Assembly: GCA_951406725.2 (NCBI GenBank)
Contig: OX597824.1
Coordinates: forward strand, 95,542,001 to 95,606,000
DNA from: Octopus vulgaris
Lineage: Eukaryota
DNA length: 64,000 nt
Direction: 5' to 3'
This document shows positions 25,664 to 59,488 of this stretch, one piece after another; position 1 is the first letter of the stretch; every line of letters starts with the position of its first letter. The notes under the pieces were generated by a model. The model made no database searches, was not told where the DNA came from, and saw nothing but the letters and a program-made list of their open reading frames with translations. The position numbers and the translations under genes are program-made.

Positions 25664-28132
25664 CAGTGGTTCCCATCCTGTTGTCTGCAGAACACCTGGT
25701 GGTCCGTGGATCCCTAGTGGTCACAAAAGGTAATACTGGGGATCCATGAACATGTTAAGCTGACGGACCTTTCAATATCCTGGGGTCCGTGGCAAAACTC
25801 ATTTAAATAAAAGTGGTGAAAAGAAAGAGGCTTGGAGAAGCCATTATGAAAGACTGCTGAATGTGGAGAATAAATGGGAGGAGGAGAGCCTGCCAAATGT
25901 TGACCCAGTAGAGGGACCAGCTATCCGAATAGACAGCTCCCTTGTAGTTAAGGCAATTAAGGGTATGAAACCAGGTAAAGCCCCCGGTCCATCAGGAATC
26001 ACTGCTGAGATGCTTAAAACAGCTGGTTATGTGGGCCATGGCCTAGTCACCCGCATTGTAAACCAGGTAGTTCATAATGGAGTCATACCCAATGACTGGC
26101 GTAGCAGCACCATAGTCAACTGCTACAAGGGTAAGGGTGATGCTCTAGATAGAAATAACTACAGGGGTATTAAACTGTTGGATCAGGTGATGAAGGTCAC
26201 AGAGAGGGTCATAACCCATCTCATTAGGGTGAGAATTTACTTAGATGAGATGCAGTTCGGTTTTGTGCCAGGTAGAAGCACCACTGATGCTATATTCCTG
26301 GTCCGACAACTGCAGGAGAAGTACCTAGCTAAAGATAAACTCCTCTACATAGCTTTTGTGGACTTGGAGAAAGCCTTTGACAGGGTCCCCTGATCCCTTA
26401 TCTGGTGGTTGATGCGGAAACTGGAGATTGACGAATAGCTAATAAGGGCTGTACAGGCTCTATACAGAGAGGCTGTCAGCAAGGTTAGGATTGGCAACGA
26501 ATATAGTGAAGAATTCCGGGTAGAAGTAGGTGTACACCAGGGCTCAGCCCTCAGTCCCCTTTTATTCATCATAGTCCTCCAGACAATAACAGAGGAATTC
26601 AAAACAGGTTGCCCCTGGGAGCTCCTCTATGCTGATGACCTGGCGCTCATAGCAGAATCACTACCGGAACTAGAAAAAAAATTTTGGGTGTGAAAGCAAG
26701 GGTTAGAATCAAAGGGCCTTAGAGTAAATGTAGCAAAGACCAAAGTTATAGTAAGCAGAAAGGCGAACTCAGCACCCCCCCCCCCGGGCAGGTGGCCCTG
26801 CTCGATCCGTAGGAAAGGTGTAGGTAGAAACTCCATTAGATGTACCCAGTGTAAGCTATGGACGCATAAGAGGTGCAGCAACATCAAAGGGAAATTAACT
26901 GATAAGATAGCTTTCATGTGCGGCAGATGCACAGGGACAATAGACACCACAGATACTCAGAAAACAGATTCCATCACACTCCAGGGGAAGAAACTAGAAG
27001 TAGTTGATAGTTTCCGCTACCTGGGTGACCAAGTTAGTAGTGGAGGTGGATGCTCAGAGAGTGTCACCACTAGAATATGAATAGCCTGGGCAAAGTTTAG
27101 AAAGCTCCTACCCCTACTGGCGACAAAGGGTCTCTCGCTCAGAGTGAAAGGTAGATTGTATGATGCATGTGTGTGAACTGCCATGCTTTACGGTAGTGAA
27201 ACATGGGCGGTGACTGCAGAGGACATGCATAGACTTGAAAGAAATGAAGCTAGCATGATCCGCTGGATGTGTAATGTCAGTGTGCGCGCACAACAGAGGG
27301 TAAGCACCCTGAGAGAAATGCTGGACATAAGAAGCATCAGATGTGGTGTGCAAGAGCAACGCTTGCAATGGTATGGTCATGTACTGCGAATGGATGAGGA
27401 GAGATGTGTGAAGAAGTGCCGCTCCCAAACAGTTGAAGGTATCAGGGGGAGAGGTAGACCCAGGAAGACATGGGATGAGGTAGTCAAACATGACCTCAGA
27501 GTGTTGGGCCTCGCAGAGGCAATGACAAAGGACCAAGATCTCTGGAGATATGCTGTGACTGCAAAGACCCGGGCTGCTTCCTGCACCAGTCCCACATAGC
27601 CCCTGCCCATTCAAAGTACCTTGGACTCCAGAACATCCCGCTGTACTTGAGGAGACCTGTTGAGTCAAGTACATGAGCATCGAAATAAATATCAATGGAA
27701 ATAGTAGTTGTGACACCTGTGCCGGTGGCACATAAAAAGCACCATCCGAACGTGGACGATGCCAGCGCCGCCTCGACTGGCTTCTGTGCCAGTGGCACAT
27801 AAAAAGCATCATCCGAACGTGGACGATGCCAGCGCCGCCTTGACTGGCTTCCGTGCCGGTGGCACGTTAAAAGCACCAACCGATCGTGGCCGATGCCAGA
27901 CTCCCCTGGCACCTGTGCCGGTGGCACGTAAAAAGCACCCACTACACTTGTGGAGTGGTTGGCGTTAGGAAGGGCATCCAGCTGTAGAAACACTGCCAGA
28001 TCAGACTGGAGCCTGGTACAGCCTCCTGGCTTCCCAGACCCCGGTCGAACTGTCCAACCCGTGCCAGCGCGGAAAACGGACGTTAAAACGATGATGATGA
28101 GTCCTTGGTAGTGAAAAGGTTGGGAACCACTG
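25664..28132. mobile_element. hAT (Charlie-like) MITE split by an RTE insertion
   Basis: TIRs CAGTGGTTCCCA (25664) / TGGGAACCACTG (28132); imperfect 8-bp TSD ACCTAGAG / ATTTAGAG. Confidence 0.75.
25818..28100 (+). mobile_element. 5'-truncated, pseudogenised RTE-clade LINE (RT domain, 3' UTR, (GAT)n tail), antisense in NENF intron 1
   Basis: KAPGPSGI, NYRGIKLL, QFGFVPGRST, FVDLEKAFDRVP, GVHQGSALSP, LLYADDL (~26622-26642), MLYGSETW, RGRPRKTW; in-frame stops at e.g. 26391, 26436, 26691. Confidence 0.95.
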
Positions 28133-47158: not shown

Positions 47159-47817
47159 CGCGCAGTGGGACTGAACTTGGAACCATGTGGTTGGCAAGCA
47201 AGCTACTTACCACACAGCCACTCCTGCGCCTATAAATTGTTTCCAAACCATCTATCTGTCTATATATAGACAGACAGATGGTGGCCTAGTGGTTAGGGTT
47301 AGGAGCCCTTCTTCAAGGAATTTATGGAGAAAAGGTGTTGAGAGCTGATTTCATTTGTTATAACTTGCTTTGTTTAGGCTTTAAAAAAATATTTAAAACA
47401 TACAATTATGTGTGTGTGTGTGCACGCATTAATATATCCCCTTGCCTTGACATCACGTGATGTTTGCAAACGAGCATCACTATCATACGAATGATGTTGC
47501 TTGCCTGGCTATTGGGGGAATATTACGTTGCTTGGAAACAGGTGAGGGTTGGTGACAGCAAGGGCATCCAGCTGTTGGAAACCTGCCTCAACAAATTCCG
47601 TCTGACCCATACAAGGATGGAAAAGTGGACTTTAAATGATGATGATGACAATGAATATATTTCTCTCCTGATAAAGCCTTCTTTAAGCTATATGATGTAA
47701 AACAGTTGTCTTTAGAGAAGAGAAAAATTTCAAATAGAAAAAAGTGAAATATGAACTCCTGGTATTCTCTGCCATTCTTCCTGGCAGTTCTTATTATGTA
47801 TGATGGTTGGTTTACAT

Positions 47818-48058
47818 CAGTGCTTTTCAACCTTTTTGCTGGAGCGGAACCCCAAGGAAACATTCCACTGGCTCGAGGAACCCCTGTGCAATAATTTAAT
47901 TGTCTTATGCACACATACCTGCACAGGAGAATTAAAAATTACTGCTGATTTTAGCAGTTTTGTAATTTCTTGCGGAACCCCTGGACTGTACTGACGGAAC
48001 CCTAAGGTTCTGCGGAACCCCTGGACTGTACTGGCGGAACCCTGGTTGAAAACCACTG
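47818..48058. mobile_element. hAT MITE with perfect 8-bp TSD
   Basis: TIR CAGTGCTTTTCAACC / GGTTGAAAACCACTG; TSD GTTTACAT at 47810-47817 and 48059-48066; internal GCGGAACCC repeats. Confidence 0.9.
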
Positions 48059-49749
48059 GTTTACATCAATCACCAACGACGACGGGGTACAGGCAGTGGT
48101 GGTTGGCTGTCGTGACAAGGGGAACAACTCGCTTGGGTCTATTGTGTATCATTACACAGCAACAGAAAGGAGATGACTGGAAGCAGTGGAAAGATGCTAA
48201 CGATTTGGCACGGCCGACTGGACATTCAGCGTGTTATTGGTAGAGGTGCATGGCTCAGTGGTTAGAGCATCGAGCTTACGATCGTTAGGTTGTGAGTTCG
48301 AATCCCGGACCGGGCTGCGTGTTGTGTTCTTGAGCGAGACACTTTATTTTACGCTGCTCCAGTTCACTCAGCTGTAGAAATGAGTTGTGACATCACTGAT
48401 GCCAACCTGTATTGGCCCCTTTGCCTTTCCCTTGGATAACACTGGTGGCATGAACAGGGGAGGCCGGTATGCATGGGCGACTGCTGGTCTTCCATAAACA
48501 ACCTTGCTCGGACTTGTGCCTGGGAAGGGAACTTTATAGGTGCAATCCCATGGTCAGTCATGACCGAAGGGGGTCTCAACTATGTGGTGCCAGACACACA
48601 CACACACACACATACAGACAGAAAAAATGAGAGAGAGATATAAAGATTTATTAATTGAACACAGTTGCTGTGGTAAGAAGCTTGTTTCCCAATCACATCT
48701 TTCCTTGTTCAGTCCCACTGCACGGCATCTCGGGCGAGTTGTCTTCTACTATAGCCTTGGGCCAACCAATGCCTTGTGAGTGAATTTGGTTGACGGAAAC
48801 TGAAAGAAGCCCGCCGTATATATATATACGTGTGTGTGTGTGTGCGCGCGTTTACGTCCCCGTAAGTTAGCGGTTCGGCAAAAGACACCGATAGGATAAG
48901 CACTAGGCTTACAAAGAATAAGTCCTGGGGTCGATTTGTTCGACTAAAGGCGGTGCTCCAGCATGGCCGCAGTCAAGTGACTGAAGCAAGTGAAAGAGAT
49001 ATGAACACTTTCCTTCTAAGACAGAGAGAGATATGCTCACACATAAACAGTGAGAGAGAGGGAGGGAGGCAGAGTGAGAGAGAGAGAGAGAGGGATGGAG
49101 GCAGAGAGAGAGGGGGGAAACAGAGAGAGAGAGGGAGAGAAGAGGGGGAGGGGACGAAACATGAAGTCGTCTGGTACGTTTAAGTCAGCATCGAACCAGT
49201 GATGCCAAAACTAGGCTGAGTCTGCAATCTTGTTCCGGTCGACGGTCGAAGTCAGTTCATTTACACTTTTAAAAAGACACGAAAGCCACAGAACATCTTC
49301 CTCTTCCAAAAAGAAAAGAGAAAATGGGAAACCAAAAAACCCCAGAAAAGTGATCGTCTGGCCCGAATTGAAAGTCAAGTGTCAGTGTAAGGGAGATAAT
49401 TCGTACAGAAGTTGCAAATCTGGACGGAACCTTTTGGACATTCAACACAGTTTAGAGCAAATAAAACTATAAATTTTAAAAAAAAATCCCAGAAGGAATT
49501 CATATATTGTGGTCTATTGATATATAAATCTAAACTACAGAAAATTATTACTGTATTCACTTGAGTATCCTGGCACTCGGTCGATTACGATGACGAGGGT
49601 TCCAGGTGATCCGGTCAACGGAACAGCCTGCTCGTGGAATTAACTCCACAGGCACGTTTACCATTAATCTAGTTCTCGGAGAGATTCAGTGTGACAAGGC
49701 TGGCCCTTTGAAATACAGACATAACAGAAAGTAAGAGCGAGAGAAAGTG

Positions 49750-54384: not shown

Positions 54385-54523
54385 TACATATTAGAAGGAA
54401 ACAGCTGTGTGGACACAATCATGCTAGAAATAGATCCGCTATGGTCTTACCACTAATAAATTATCATAGCGGATCTATTTCTAGCATAAGGGTGTCCACA
54501 TAGTGGTTTCCCTCTAATATGTA
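54385..54523. repeat. Hairpin/palindrome, ~59-bp arms, 21-nt loop (MITE-like or pre-miRNA-like)
   Basis: Perfect 23-bp inner stem 54421-54443 / 54465-54487; outer stem with ~7 mismatches; TA at both ends. Confidence 0.85.
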
Positions 54524-54773
54524 TTTAATACAATTTTACTGAACCTTCAGTTTTTTTTATATGCTAGACCACTGGTGTGAAATCGATGTTAATTAAATTA
54601 ATATCTAATTTCTCACCCTCATTTTAAATTTAAATATATATATATATATAAACACACACAGATGTATGGAAAGAGGGTGTGTCAGAGAGAGAGACAGAGA
54701 GAGAGAAGCTGCTAAGCGTATGGCTACAAAATGCCTCGTATTATTGTAGAATAAATAAATAATGAGGTCCCAC

Positions 54774-54868
54774 CTTTCGTTATCTGCAAGATTTTTCTCC
54801 CGCAAAGATCTGTCTATCCGTTCGATATGTGTCCGACATGCCTTAATTCCTTTCTCGACAGCTTCGAT
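54774..54868 (-). CDS. CCDC167: CCDC167 exon 2
   Basis: TTCTTCAG acceptor 54869-54871, GTGGGA donor 54773; 95 nt, IEAVEKGIKACRTHIERIDRSLREKNLADNE(R); human [32 protein letters not shown]. Confidence 0.88.
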
Positions 54869-54979
54869 CTGAAGAACGACGAAAGATCATAGATTATAGA
54901 TCACATCAAATCACCCCAAACATAACAAAGATGCTAATATACATCACAAACGAGGGTTTGAAGAAAAAGCTGTACTTGC

Positions 54980-55000
54980 CTGACCAAAGATGCTGGGCAT
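54980..55000 (-). CDS. CCDC167: CCDC167 coding exon 1 (MPSIFGQ) with GC donor
   Basis: CAATATG start with upstream in-frame TGA; CAG|GCAAGT donor gives the required phase 0; spliced CDS 21+95+53+107 nt = 91 aa. Confidence 0.72.
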
Positions 55001-55739
55001 ATTGATGACATAACACGTGTCAAGCACTCAAAGTCGACTTCCGTTTTTGAAGCTAATTAAAATATTAAATTTCCCACTATTTTCACAAAAATACCTTTGA
55101 TTATTCTTTTCCGTATTTTTAATTAATTATGGAGACTCGATATCAATACTTAAATCAATTAATGTCGCATATGTAAAACGCTTAATTATTGAATCTATTT
55201 CGCACGCGCGCACTGATTCATGCATAATCAGTCTTTTGAGGCAAATAAATGGGGAACCTGCTTTCTGGTAAACAGGCAATCAAATATGAATGATATACGA
55301 TCGATTTTGAGTCGATTTCGACGGTGATCATCCCAGCTGTTCGATGACAGAATTACATAGTCATTGTATCATATTACAGGTGGCTGTGTATTCCATAGAC
55401 ACTTGTATACTTAATGTAATATTAAGGTGTTAATGGAATCATGTGACAGGATTCCCCAGAGTTTCCTATTCAGCTGTATTTGTTCGCGAGGCCTCGGTCG
55501 ACCTGAATCTTTAGCAGGAGACATTAGCACAAAGTGCCGCGTGAAGGGACCGAATTCTAGGCCCCAAAATTGCAAAGTAAACGTCTTAATCATTTACATG
55601 AATTGATATATATATGTATTAATTAAATAAGTTAGTGGGTACTTGTCAATTGTCGTGGTCCCGGTTTTGCACACGCGAATTTGCGCGTGCGCGCGCGCCA
55701 GACGTAGGTACTCGATACTCGAGATCCTACGAGGTGACT

Positions 55740-55751
55740 TGCGCATGCGCA
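55740..55751. promoter_or_regulatory. NRF1/EWG consensus palindrome TGCGCATGCGCA in TIR (mirror copy 58426-58437)
   Basis: Exact 12-bp consensus within a CpG-dense subterminal block; function not shown. Confidence 0.45.
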
Positions 55752-56130
55752 GTGCAGAATTCGCGCGTGCGCGTTAAACCCCCCCCCCTAAAAAAAAAGG
55801 TGTTGGATTTCACTAAAAATATATATGTGTGTGTGTGTATATAACATTTTCAATTTTACACAAAAAAATTACATAGTCGCTTTCCTCGCGGATTTACAGA
55901 AAAATGAATTAATTACTATTTTACAGAATAAAATTAATGAATTAATTATATAAATTAAATAATTCTTGAAAATTAATTAATATTAATAATATTTTTTGAA
56001 CAAAGTAAATAATTTATAAAACTTGGTTAATAATTTTTTTTACACAAACGCGAACGTATATAATTTGTGAAACTTTTTTTTTTTTACAGACGTATATAAT
56101 TTGGTAAACTTAATGAATTAATTTCTTCTC

Positions 56131-56552
56131 ATCATCATCATCGTTTAACGTCCGTTCTCCATGCCAGCATGGGTTGGACGGTTCGACCGGGGATCTGGGA
56201 AGCCAGAAGGCTGCACCAGACTCCAGTCTTATCTGGCAATGTTTCTACAGCTGGATGCCCTTCCTAACGCCAACCACTCCGAGAGTGTAGTGGGTGCTTT
56301 TTACATGCCACCCGCACAGGTGCCAGGCGAGGCTGGCAACGGCCACGGTCGGATTGGTGCCAGTCGAGGCGGCTCTGGCATCGGCCACGATTCGGATAGT
56401 GCTTTTTACGTACCACCAGTCCAGGGGTCCTGGCATTTGCCGGGTGCCACACTTGCCCCAACATGTCTTCGCAAGCAAAGGGGGTTGGCATGGGTGCCTG
56501 TCGTGGGATGAGGTTCGATATCAACTTCGCTTGCCTCAACAGGTCTTTGTGT
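56131..56552 (-). mobile_element. RTE 3'-end fragment inside left TIR (mirror copy ~57627-58049 on +)
   Basis: Same 3' UTR and (GAT)n tail as the RTE at 27640-28100. Confidence 0.88.
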
Positions 56553-56988
56553 ATAAATGTATAAATTTTTCGCACTAAATTCTTTCCGTAGAATTTATCA
56601 AAAAACGCGCAAAATTATTCCGTAGACTTTATCAAATTAAAAAAACGCAAAATTAATATATTTTTTGAAATTGCAAATTATTTAGAATATAAAACAAATT
56701 AAGTTAAATTTTAAAAATAAATGTCATATACTTATACTCTGTAAGGTGCTGTGTTCACACTTCAATTTACTATTTTCTAGAAATGTTGCTTTTCTAATTG
56801 AAACAATTTTTCTCAATCTCCATTTAAAAGTCCATAATGCCTCTTGAGCCATATCAAAATGAACAACTTTGAATTACCCGGTGGTGGTGGTGGTGTGAGG
56901 TTCTAATTTTTTTTCTGATCTCTCTTTGCCCCCCCCCTAGATGGAGGTGTGGTGGGGAGACAGATGAAAGATGTTTCATTCTCTACTA

Positions 56989-57041
<53 letters not shown>

Positions 57042-57164
57042 CTTAAACCTACACGATATAGTCTATAAATTTGGGATGTTTTTGAAAGATAATATATTTT
57101 GTCATCAGAATATATATACTTTCTCACACTACAATTAAGATATATTTATTTTAAATCGTTCATC

Positions 57165-57197
57165 TTTTCCCGCGACAACAAAAATTGGGCGCGAAAA
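57165..57197. promoter_or_regulatory. Inverted pair of E2F-type sites in the foldback spacer
   Basis: TTTTCCCGCG 57165-57174 and GGGCGCGAAAA 57187-57197 (both fit TTTSSCGC). Confidence 0.35.
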
Positions 57198-58817
57198 TTT
57201 TTCTAAATATTAGCTGAATGAACAACTGAGATAAAGAGGGGGCAAAGAGAGATCAGAAAAAAAATTAGAACCTCACACCACCACCACCACCACCACCACC
57301 GGGTAATTCAAAGTTGTTCATTTTGATATGGCTCAAGAGGCATTATGGACTTTTAAATGGAGATTGAGAAAAATTGTTTCAATTAGAAAAGCAACATTTC
57401 TAGAAAATAGTAAATTGAAGTGTGAACACAGCACCTTACAGAGTATAAGTATATGACATTTATTTTTAAAATTTAACTTAATTTGTTTTATATTCTAAAT
57501 AATTTGCAATTTCAAAAAATATATTAATATTGCGTTTTTTAATTTGATAAAGTCTACGGAATAATTTTGCGCGTTTTTTGATAAATTCTACGGAAAGAAT
57601 TTAGTGCGAAAAATTTATACATTTATACACAAAGACCTGTTGAGGCAAGCGAAGTTGATATCGAACCTCATCCCACGACAGGCACCCATGCCAACCCCCT
57701 TTGCTTGCGAAGACATGTTGGGGCAAGTGTGGCACCCGGCAAATGCCAGGACCCCTGGACTGGTGGTACGTAAAAAGCACTATCCGAATCGTGGCCGATG
57801 CCAGAGCCGCCTTGACTGGCACCAATCCGACCGTGGCCGTTGCCAGCCTCGCCTGGCACCTGTGCGGGTGGCATGTAAAAAGCACCCACTACACTCTCGG
57901 AGTGGTTGGCGTTAGGAAGGGCATCCAGCTGTAGAAACATTGCCAGATAAGACTGGAGTCTGGTGCAGCCTTCTGGCTTCCCAGATCCCCGGTCGAACCG
58001 TCCAACCCATGCTGGCATGGAGAACGGACGTTAAACGATGATGATGATGAGAAGAAATTAATTCATTAAGTTTACCAAATTATATACGTCTGTAAAAAAA
58101 AAAAGTTTCACAAATTATATACGTTCGCGTTTGTGTAAAAAAAATTATTAACCAAGTTTTATAAATTATTTACTTTGTTCAAAAAATATTATTAATATTA
58201 ATTAATTTTCAAGAATTATTTAATTTATATAATTAATTCATTAATTTTATTCTGTAAAATAGTAATTAATTCATTTTTCTGTAAATCCGCGAGGAAAGCG
58301 ACTATGTAATTTTTTTGTGTAAAATTGAAAATGTTATATACACACACACACATATATATTTTTAGTGAAATCCAACACCTTTTTTTTAGGGGGGGGGGTT
58401 TAACGCGCACGCGCGAATTCTGCACTGCGCATGCGCAAGTCACCTCGTAGGATCTCGAGTATCGAGTACCTACGTCTGACGCGCGCGCGCGCGCGAATTC
58501 GCGTGTGCAAAACCGGGACCACGACAATTGACAAGTACCAAGTTAGTGTTAGCAAATTTAATACATGAATTGATATTCAACTACACAACCACACATCATT
58601 GGTTTCCGTGTAGGCATAGTTTAGATCCTAGATCTGAAATACAGCATTTTCCTCTGTTAATTTAATTCTCGGGTCTCAACGTTTCTTAACCTAATTCAGT
58701 CACTTCTCAACCCTTCCTTGGTCTCCCACCCAACAACATGTAGCATTCATGCACACCAAACACTCACTCCAGTGTAGTCGTTTCTCCCACATATATCAGC
58801 AGCTCATATCTAAATCA

Positions 58818-59488
58818 TAGCATACCTACATATGTGCCTTCCACTCGACTTTGTTTCCTCATAACTTTTAGAAAAATGGATATTTTTCAATGAAATTTGT
58901 CAGAAATATGCTTCAGATGGTGTAGATTCCGATTTTATCAGAATTTGTTATGAAGAATTTTTTCCATTAGTGGGGAGAGGAGTTTCTAAGAATTCGCACG
59001 AGTCAGCTTTATTTCCTCATAACTTTAAGAAAAATGAGTATTTTTTAATGAAATTTTCTACAAATACTTTTCAGAGTGTGTAGATTACGCTTATATCGAA
59101 ATTTAATGTGCAGAAAAAAAAGGCTGGTACGCAAACACCACAATTCTTTTCGAAATTTCAAGTTTCATTAGATAGACAAATATCTGTATGTATGTGTGCG
59201 AGTCTATCATTTTTTTTTTCACATTAAATTAAATTAATCGCAATCTACACATTCTGAATGATATTTGTAGAAAATTTCATTAAAAAAAAATCCCAGTTTT
59301 TCTTAAAGTTACAAGGAAACAATTGAAACTCTTCTCCTGGAAAAAGATTTTCACAAGAAATTCCAATATAATCGGAATGTACATGACCTGAAGCATATTT
59401 GTAGAAAATTTCACTAAAAAATATCTATTTTTCTGAAAGTTGTGAGGAAACAAAATCGGTGGGAGTGCACATTTGTGTAGGTATGCCA
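58818..59488. mobile_element. Older degenerate foldback/MITE with modular inverted arms
   Basis: TAGCATACCTACA / TGTAGGTATGCCA ends; 58818-58965 pairs with 59339-59488 and 59012-59110 with 59220-59320; 7-bp direct repeat TAAATCA at 58811-58817 and 59489-59495. Confidence 0.8.

What the first reader, a model, noticed from the sequence alone, without database searches (positions are those of the whole stretch)
55629..58548. Young 2.9-kb foldback transposon: 1.3-kb near-perfect inverted arms and a 9-bp TSD, inserted ~640 bp upstream of the CCDC167 start
Seen: about 90% of the element is a single inverted repeat (arms ~1.3 kb, ~300-bp spacer), with only a handful of substitutions and homopolymer/GGT length differences between arms. 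It has GG...CC termini, an exact AAGTTAGTG duplication, modular sub-repeats (GAATTYGCGCGTGCGCG x2, CGTATATAATTTG x2, TTCCGTAGA.TTTATCAAA x2) and no transposase ORF. Established: 9-bp TSDs with long G-ended TIRs typify the Mutator/Foldback superfamily. Inference: this is a recently mobile, possibly uncatalogued non-autonomous cephalopod foldback family able to form a giant cruciform or hairpin. It may be polymorphic and may alter CCDC167 transcription.
Basis: partly seen in the sequence, partly recalled or inferred. Interest (0 to 1): 0.85.

Follow-up and report, generated by a model that had tools for sequence, protein, structure and literature searches.

The report
Octopus foldback transposon, likely Merlin
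A 2.9-kb mirror-image piece of repeated DNA sits just upstream of the CCDC167 gene in this (likely octopus) genome but appears to be missing from the same spot in three other animals, so it is likely a recent insertion of a non-coding jumping gene of the Merlin type, whose two arms each carry the same scrap of another mobile element.

Summary
In detail: a 2,902-bp element (55638-58539) with arms of 1,296/1,302 bp (5 substitutions, 4 length differences), a 304-bp spacer, GG...CC ends, an exact 9-bp TSD and no coding domain, 627 bp upstream of the predicted CCDC167 ATG. Public DNA runs show arm sequence at tens to hundreds of times the flank's depth, and in 3 of 3 non-source studies the flank contig runs on past the TSD without the element, so it is a repeated family and this insertion is recent and probably polymorphic. 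Two corrections. (1) The superfamily is more likely Merlin than Mutator: the end matches two published Merlin families over 9 and 10 bases, Merlin also has GG ends, 8-9-bp TSDs and 1-kb TIRs, and the tandem arrays of Mutator-type foldbacks are absent. No transposase partner could be sought; a 2026 curated octopus library, unreadable here, may already hold the family. No effect on CCDC167 is shown. The scan's earlier notes hold nothing similar. New member of a known kind; modest interest.

The parts
55629..55637 (.). left copy of 9-bp target site duplication
   Evidence: flank contigs of runs X3, X6, X7 match up to 55637 and then leave the element (table 8)
55638..56933 (+). left arm (terminal inverted repeat), 1,296 bp
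55638..55800 (+). GC/CpG-rich outer cap: Merlin-like terminus (first 9-10 bases equal to Euglena Merlin F1/F2 ends), internal imperfect hairpin (z -4.0), 12-bp palindrome at 55740-55751 resembling an NRF-1 site (name recalled)
55801..56128 (+). AT-rich arm segment (19% GC) with 2-3-copy sub-repeats
56129..56552 (-). 5'-truncated LINE 3'-end fragment with (GAT)n tail, inside left arm
   Evidence: 81-82% to the 3' end of the RT-bearing LINE at ~25.8-28.1 kb; other genomic copies run on beyond 56552 (table 7); junction to the inner arm on high-depth contigs in X3, X6, X7 (table 8)
56553..56933 (+). inner AT-rich arm segment with 34-bp-spaced sub-repeat, (GGT)n tract and inner 54 bp
56934..57237 (.). 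non-repeated spacer, 304 bp, with (TA)26 at 56987-57039
   Evidence: arm-spacer junction on multi-depth contigs (tables 4 and 8)
57238..58539 (-). right arm (terminal inverted repeat), 1,302 bp
57627..58050 (+). mirror copy of the LINE 3'-end fragment inside right arm (one substitution from the left copy)
58540..58548 (.). right copy of 9-bp target site duplication
54976..55011 (-). predicted first coding exon of host gene CCDC167 (MSSICPASLVRQ, GT donor); context, not part of the element
   Evidence: start codon inferred
54774..54868 (-). predicted second coding exon of CCDC167; context
   Evidence: PF15188, E 4e-6, 27.4 bits against cut-off 27; splice sites read

Best explanation
This is a non-coding, foldback-shaped DNA transposon from a repeated family, likely of the Merlin (IS1016-like) superfamily, that was likely cut and pasted recently, by a transposase encoded elsewhere, into the DNA 627 bp upstream of the predicted CCDC167 start, leaving a 9-bp target duplication. 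Shown: the arms, ends, TSD, lack of coding domains, the LINE fragment in both arms, the high depth of arm sequence, and flank contigs without the element in three other animals. Inferred history: (1) a LINE 3' end inserted once into one end of an ancestral element; (2) that end was copied in inverted orientation over the other end (repair of one TIR from the other, as proposed for Galileo), which lengthened the TIR to 1.3 kb, duplicated the LINE scrap and removed the transposase; (3) the resulting palindrome kept two intact transposase-binding ends and was amplified in trans, with continued arm-to-arm or copy-to-copy conversion keeping the arms about 99% alike; (4) one copy landed here after the sampled lineages split. 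The most likely effect on CCDC167 is none or a small cis effect.
For: Structure. Repeated family: single arm contigs at 38-163x (X3), 74-82x (X6), 65-122x (X7) the depth of the flank contig (table 8; depth is a rough guide, not a copy number); an independent X6 contig begins its match exactly at 55638. Empty site: X3 record 10, X6 record 17 and X7 record 25 match the flank to 55637 and carry 326, 325 and 135 further letters that do not lie on the element (3 of 3 studies, the possible source X1 left out). LINE fragment is a family trait: contigs spanning its junction with the inner arm have depth 1,905, 1,970 and 865 against flank 11.7, 26.6 and 7.1. Merlin: GG ends and 8-9-bp TSD define it (PMC8101967); 2 of 10 Merlin families whose ends I saw begin with the same 9 (E.g_F1) and 10 (E.g_F2) bases, 9 of 10 begin GG-Y-A like this element; chance of 8 further matching bases in one of 10 families is about 1.5 x 10^-4 (own arithmetic); Repbase Merlin-1_DR and Merlin-N5_DR have 1,000-bp TIRs; Octopus encodes Merlin transposases and Merlin is nearly cephalopod-restricted among molluscs; recently active O. 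vulgaris Merlin insertions average 2.6 kb (11 insertions, 28,998 bp) against 0.9 kb for Mutator (115, 100,754 bp). TIR extension by copying one end: Galileo, TIRs to 1,260 bp.
Against: The two matching Merlin families come from one protist and may count as one; 8 of 10 families match only 2-4 bases. 8 bp was the TSD of 9 of the 10 families seen; 9 bp only in P. purpureum. Only one TSD was seen. Most foldbacks are assigned to Mutator. The letters beyond 55637 in the empty-site contigs were not printed, so their identity with the right flank is not shown. No contig joining flank to arm was listed in any run, X1 included (its flank contig stops exactly at 55637 and the bin depth shows no extra cover; about 80% of X1 was read), so the filled allele rests on the assembly.
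Confidence: 0.72

Rival explanations
1. Same element and history, but it belongs to the Mutator/Foldback (MULE, Phantom-like) superfamily.
For: 9-bp TSD lies in the MULE range of 8-11 bp and MULE TIRs are long; most foldbacks are filed under Mutator; MULEs occur in all molluscs examined and 21 Mutator families are recently active in O. vulgaris; MULEs favour gene-proximal sites.
Against: Mutator-type foldbacks (Muta1, Tm1) have TIRs built of tandem 12-15-bp arrays; Tandem Repeats Finder finds only (TA)n and (CAC)n in this element. The terminal 8-mer has 0 occurrences in the 3 readable supplements of the MULE survey (weak, the files may hold little terminal DNA) and differs from Tm1's terminal motifs, while it matches Merlin ends.
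Confidence: 0.17
2. The family is real and two-ended, but the 1.3-kb arms with the LINE fragment on both sides are kept alike by ongoing arm-to-arm conversion of an old long-TIR element, or arose from two copies of one end inserted head-to-head, not from one repair event in a transposase-bearing ancestor.
For: Joints that skip parts of the arm (55722>56034; 56061>56604, which drops the whole LINE fragment) occur in X6 and X7 at 26-39x flank depth (table 5), so the arm is modular and variants exist; the right-arm allele at 55688 and 56639 is common in all four runs.
Against: Either route still needs one LINE insertion to be copied to the other arm; the 542-bp skip removes about 67 and 51 flanking bases as well, so it is not the clean pre-insertion arm. 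Not separable from the best explanation with these data.
Confidence: 0.07
3. Assembly artefact: a fold-back chimeric read or a collapsed repeat made the mirror image or placed the element here.
For: No listed contig bridges flank and arm; long perfect palindromes are a known artefact of long-read and amplified libraries (recalled).
Against: Exact 9-bp TSD whose single copy ends just where the empty-site contigs leave the element; unique 304-bp spacer; nine differences between arms, some of which are real family variants in reads of other animals; arm-spacer junction present on contigs in 4 of 4 runs (table 4); different flanks on the two sides.
Confidence: 0.04

Closest known systems
Merlin superfamily, Euglena gracilis families E.g_F1 and E.g_F2 (Lopes et al. 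2021, PMC8101967)
   Same: First 9 and 10 terminal bases identical; GG...CC; TSD in the 8-9-bp class; E.g_F2 also carries a 14-bp word equal to 55660-55673 (2 of 3 copies; at another distance from the end, seen by eye, weak).
   Different: They are 1.1-1.6-kb coding elements with short TIRs and 8-bp TSDs; this one is non-coding, 90% inverted repeat, 9-bp TSD.
Zebrafish Merlin-1_DR and Merlin-N5_DR (Repbase, as tabulated in PMC8101967 S1 table)
   Same: Merlin elements with 1,000-bp TIRs; Merlin-N5_DR is non-coding, about 4.3 kb.
   Different: Their TIRs hold tandem arrays (44-, 99-, 113-bp units); here the arms are 1.3 kb, have no arrays and hold a LINE fragment. Their sequences were not seen.
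Galileo '2RT' copies of Drosophila mojavensis (P superfamily; PMC3573991)
   Same: Foldback shape, two extended TIRs up to 1,260 bp around a short non-coding middle, made by copying internal sequence from one end to the other.
   Different: Different superfamily and ends; recruited DNA there is the element's own, here it includes a foreign LINE 3' end.
Mutator/Foldback elements Muta1 (PMC5225508), Tm1 (PMC3169594), Tetris (PMC4079207)
   Same: Long TIRs, 8-10-bp TSD, non-autonomous derivatives.
   Different: TIRs of tandem 12-15-bp (or 220-bp) modules, different terminal motifs where seen (Tm1).
Recently active Merlin families of Octopus vulgaris (PMC13282606, Table 1)
   Same: 2 families, 11 near-full-length young insertions of mean 2.6 kb: compatible in size and age.
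   Different: Sequences are on Zenodo and could not be read; identity with this family is untested.

Membership tests
Merlin | TIRs begin 5'-GG | tested here: met
Merlin | 8- or 9-bp TSD | tested here: met
   9 bp, one copy only
Merlin | Terminal sequence like that of transposase-defined Merlin families | tested here: met
   9 and 10 identical bases with 2 of 10 families seen; 9 of 10 share GG-Y-A; 9 of 29 alignment heads of that supplement were not displayed
Merlin | TIR length in the known range (21-1,000 bp in the Repbase table) | tested here: inconclusive
   1,296-1,302 bp, above the range; 872-878 bp without the LINE fragment
Merlin | DDE_Tnp_IS1595 transposase in the element or in a partner with the same ends | not testable with these tools
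Mutator/Foldback (MULE) | 8-11-bp TSD | tested here: met
Mutator/Foldback (MULE) | Long TIRs (over 100 bp) | tested here: met
Mutator/Foldback (MULE) | TIRs built of tandem subterminal repeat arrays (type-2 foldback: Muta1, Tm1) | tested here: not met
   only (TA)n and (CAC)n by TRF; sub-repeats are 2-3 dispersed copies
Mutator/Foldback (MULE) | Terminal sequence like known MULE ends | tested here: inconclusive
   0 hits in 3 supplement files; Tm1 motifs differ; Muta1 motif not in text
Mutator/Foldback (MULE) | MuDR/IS256-type DDE transposase partner with the same ends | not testable with these tools
Non-autonomous TIR transposon (any superfamily) | Dispersed multiple copies | tested here: met
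   arm contigs at tens to over a hundred times flank depth in X3, X6, X7; no second copy in this window
Non-autonomous TIR transposon (any superfamily) | Orthologous empty site | tested here: met
   3 of 3 non-source runs pass 55637 into other DNA (table 8); those letters not printed
Non-autonomous TIR transposon (any superfamily) | No transposase ORF | tested here: met
   longest stop-to-stop frame 120 aa; 0 of 8 scanned have a Pfam hit

The most novel reading that the evidence does not exclude
A Merlin family is amplifying now in one octopus lineage (inner-arm depth relative to flank is 5-16 times higher in run X1 than in X3, X6, X7 while the LINE part is level), and because each copy carries a LINE 3' end in mirror image, any read-through, here divergent transcription from the CCDC167 promoter, makes a 1.3-kb hairpin RNA. 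The DNA transposon would then be spreading ready-made hairpin silencers and A-to-I editing substrates aimed at one of the genome's most abundant LINE families.
Probability: 0.08. Interest if true: 0.72.

Novelty: new member of a known kind. Interest (0 to 1): 0.33.

Why it matters
If confirmed it gives a young, probably segregating 2.9-kb insertion next to an octopus promoter, testable by comparing alleles, and a handle (the terminal 160 bp) to find an active Merlin transposase, a superfamily that to my recollection has no experimentally characterised eukaryotic member. It also shows that 'foldback plus 9-bp TSD' is not enough to call Mutator, and the LINE scrap in both arms is a neat marker of TIR-to-TIR copying. 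None of this is a new kind of system.

Tried and rejected
No whole genome held, so the genome-wide TSD table and partner search were impossible. Terminal patterns: 0 hits in metagenome contigs in two scans; 9 hits of a 16-mer in viral contigs were chance, 9-13 of the next 44 bases matching and no second end. No second copy of the ends in the window. Rfam: none. Of 20 holder runs I laid 4. Loose-end rows for the terminus were crowded out by LINE hits (1,114 rows not shown), so no other TSD was read. Paper searches with no hit: Merlin+GGNRM, octopus+foldback+transposable element, terminal 12-mer, Merlin+IS1016+foldback; PAL8C gave one unrelated paper, so my recall that C. elegans PAL8C/Merlin ends begin alike is unverified and not used; a LINE motif search gave 2 unrelated papers. 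Yuan and Wessler 2011 not held. A 13-base match in a Merlin-flanking contig (LD363222.1) could not be shown to be a terminus; not counted. A possible decayed TSD around the LINE fragment (13 of 19 bases, AT-rich, overlaps a sub-repeat) rejected as too weak. Dating by arm divergence rejected: TIRs are not reset at insertion and some differences are family variants. The third sequence in alignment A1 was given on the wrong strand and is ignored. The sigma-70 scan is irrelevant to a eukaryote. Earlier scan notes: two unrelated hits, none by words or place.
Full report
Observation. The element runs from 55638 to 58539 (2,902 bp) between two exact copies of AAGTTAGTG. The arms are 55638-56933 and 57238-58539; a global alignment gives five substitutions, three 1-bp homopolymer differences and one 9-bp GGT difference. 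The spacer is 304 bp with (TA)26. An exact 9-mer at both ends has a chance of about 6-7 x 10^-6. The longest open frame is 120 aa; 0 of 8 element frames scanned hit Pfam and Rfam finds nothing. The neighbouring gene is CCDC167 (PF15188, E 4e-6), on the minus strand, predicted ATG at 55011, 627 bp from the element; the transcription start is unknown.

A third of each arm (56129-56552; mirror 57627-58050) is a dispersed retroposon sequence with at least seven other partial copies in the window. Its last 290 bp are 81-82% identical to the 3' end of a 5'-truncated LINE at about 25.8-28.1 kb that has a reverse transcriptase domain (PF00078, E 1e-9), it ends in (GAT)n, and other genomic copies continue past 56552 (table 7). 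It is therefore a LINE 3'-end fragment (RTE-like by my recall of its motifs; clade not tested). The two copies sit at mirror positions and differ by one base, so they descend from one insertion that was copied from arm to arm.

Public runs. Twenty runs from 10 studies hold part of the region. I laid 4 of them on the left flank, left arm and first 52 bp of spacer; all are assembled contigs, and the tool warns that summed depth is no copy number. The flank is one contig per run at depth 40.9 (X1), 11.7 (X3), 26.6 (X6), 7.1 (X7). Single contigs on the non-LINE parts of the arm have depths 441-1,905 (X3), 1,970-2,182 (X6) and 460-865 (X7): tens to over a hundred times the flank. Contigs that span the LINE/inner-arm junction are among them (1,905; 1,970; 865), so the LINE fragment is part of the family, in three coded taxa labels or lineages. 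The arm-spacer junction appears with C-run variants in 4 of 4 runs. An independent X6 contig starts its match exactly at 55638, which supports the boundary. In X3, X6 and X7 (three studies; X1 left out as the possible source) the flank contig matches to 55637, the last TSD base, and goes on for 326, 325 and 135 letters that do not lie on the element: the empty site. Against this reading: those letters were not printed, so I cannot show that they equal the right flank; and no contig joining flank to arm was listed in any run. X1's flank contig stops exactly at 55637, as a fork between a filled and an empty allele would make it, but no link contig shows in the depth of that bin (80% of the run was read), so heterozygosity is only a guess and the filled allele rests on the assembly. 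X6 and X7 also hold shorter arm variants (joints 55722>56034 and 56061>56604; the second drops the LINE fragment plus flanking bases). Normalised to the flank, inner-arm bins (56696-56847) are 883-991 in X1 against 57-61, 133-155 and 135-181, while LINE bins are level within two-fold; this hints at a burst in X1's lineage, but the outer cap differs 5-11-fold between X6 and X7, so library bias is also at work. The right-arm alleles at 55688 and 56639 are common in all runs, so arm identity is no clock for this insertion; the empty sites and the intact TSD are the evidence of youth.

Superfamily. The terminal letters do separate them. In the Merlin paper's sequence appendix I saw the ends of 10 families: Euglena F1 and F2 begin with the same 9 and 10 bases as this element, at both ends, around DDE_Tnp_IS1595 ORFs with 8-bp TSDs; seven Monocercomonoides families begin GG-Y-A; the Porphyridium family shares GG only (9 of 29 alignment heads not shown). 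By chance, eight further matching bases in one of ten families is about 1.5 x 10^-4. Octopus proteins are in that paper's Merlin transposase set, Merlin is almost restricted to cephalopods among the molluscs surveyed (PMC10294476, passages), and a curated O. vulgaris annotation lists 18 Merlin families, 2 recently active with 11 insertions averaging 2.6 kb, against 0.9 kb for Mutator (PMC13282606, parts 1-2 of 3 and supplement search). Mutator-type foldbacks have tandem arrays (PMC5225508, PMC3169594, passages), absent here. For Mutator: most foldbacks are filed there (PMC4079207, passages), and 9 bp is the rarer Merlin TSD. The defining test, a transposase with these ends, could not be run. 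I put Merlin at about 0.8 given a real element. That the host is an octopus is not tested by any search.

Mechanism. Shown: structure, repetition, shared LINE fragment, empty sites. Inferred: LINE insertion into one end; copying of that end over the other, as proposed for Galileo copies with TIRs extended to 1,260 bp (PMC3573991, passages); amplification in trans; recent insertion here. The outer 140 bp of each arm is itself an imperfect hairpin (z -4.0) and holds a 12-bp palindrome like an NRF-1 site (name recalled), so a cis effect on CCDC167 is possible, but nothing here tests it, nor cruciform or hairpin-RNA formation.

Novelty. No paper in the held library names an octopus foldback, the terminal 12-mer or a Merlin foldback; the library lacks most subscription papers, and Repbase, Dfam and the Zenodo consensus set of PMC13282606 could not be read. 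A family this repeated is likely to be in that set under an automatic name. Foldback shape, TIR extension, kilobase Merlin TIRs and promoter-proximal polymorphic insertions are each known. The verdict is a new member of a known kind, with a corrected superfamily and one attractive detail, interest 0.33. The bold reading, a DNA transposon spreading LINE-directed hairpins, is not excluded (0.08) and has no RNA evidence either way. PMC12988792 (passages) added nothing on TIR elements.

Noticed in passing
window 58828-59476: An older inverted-repeat element just right of the insertion: arms of 139 nt at 80%, built of 130-160-bp repeats (I5, I6, I8, I9, D2, D6); MITE-like.
   Followed up: no
window 55595-55609 and 58562-58576: A 15-bp direct repeat lies outside the two TSD copies; in the empty allele the copies would be 56 bp apart, so the target already held a small duplication.
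   Followed up: no
window 47818-48058: 241-bp MITE with CAGTG...CACTG ends and an exact 8-bp duplication (47810-47817, 48059-48066), hAT-like by recall; read.
   Followed up: no
window 54408-54510: About 100-bp palindrome in the second CCDC167 intron (arms about 40 bp), probably a small MITE; seen by eye.
   Followed up: no
window 25795-28100: 5'-truncated, broken LINE on + strand with RT domain and a weak PHD-finger hit inside ORF2; its 3' end is the relative of the arm fragment.
   Followed up: partly
window 54720-55637: Runs X1 and X3 share one organism label but differ from the window by 5 in 910 and 12 in 713 bases; X3 shares several variants with organisms B and C, as in a species complex.
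   Followed up: no
window 55663-55780: The outer cap of each arm folds on itself (-38 kcal/mol, z -4.0): a palindrome nested in the palindrome.
   Followed up: partly
window 55722-56034 and 56061-56604: Shorter arm variants exist in runs X6 and X7 only (table 5): sister families or deletion forms.
   Followed up: partly
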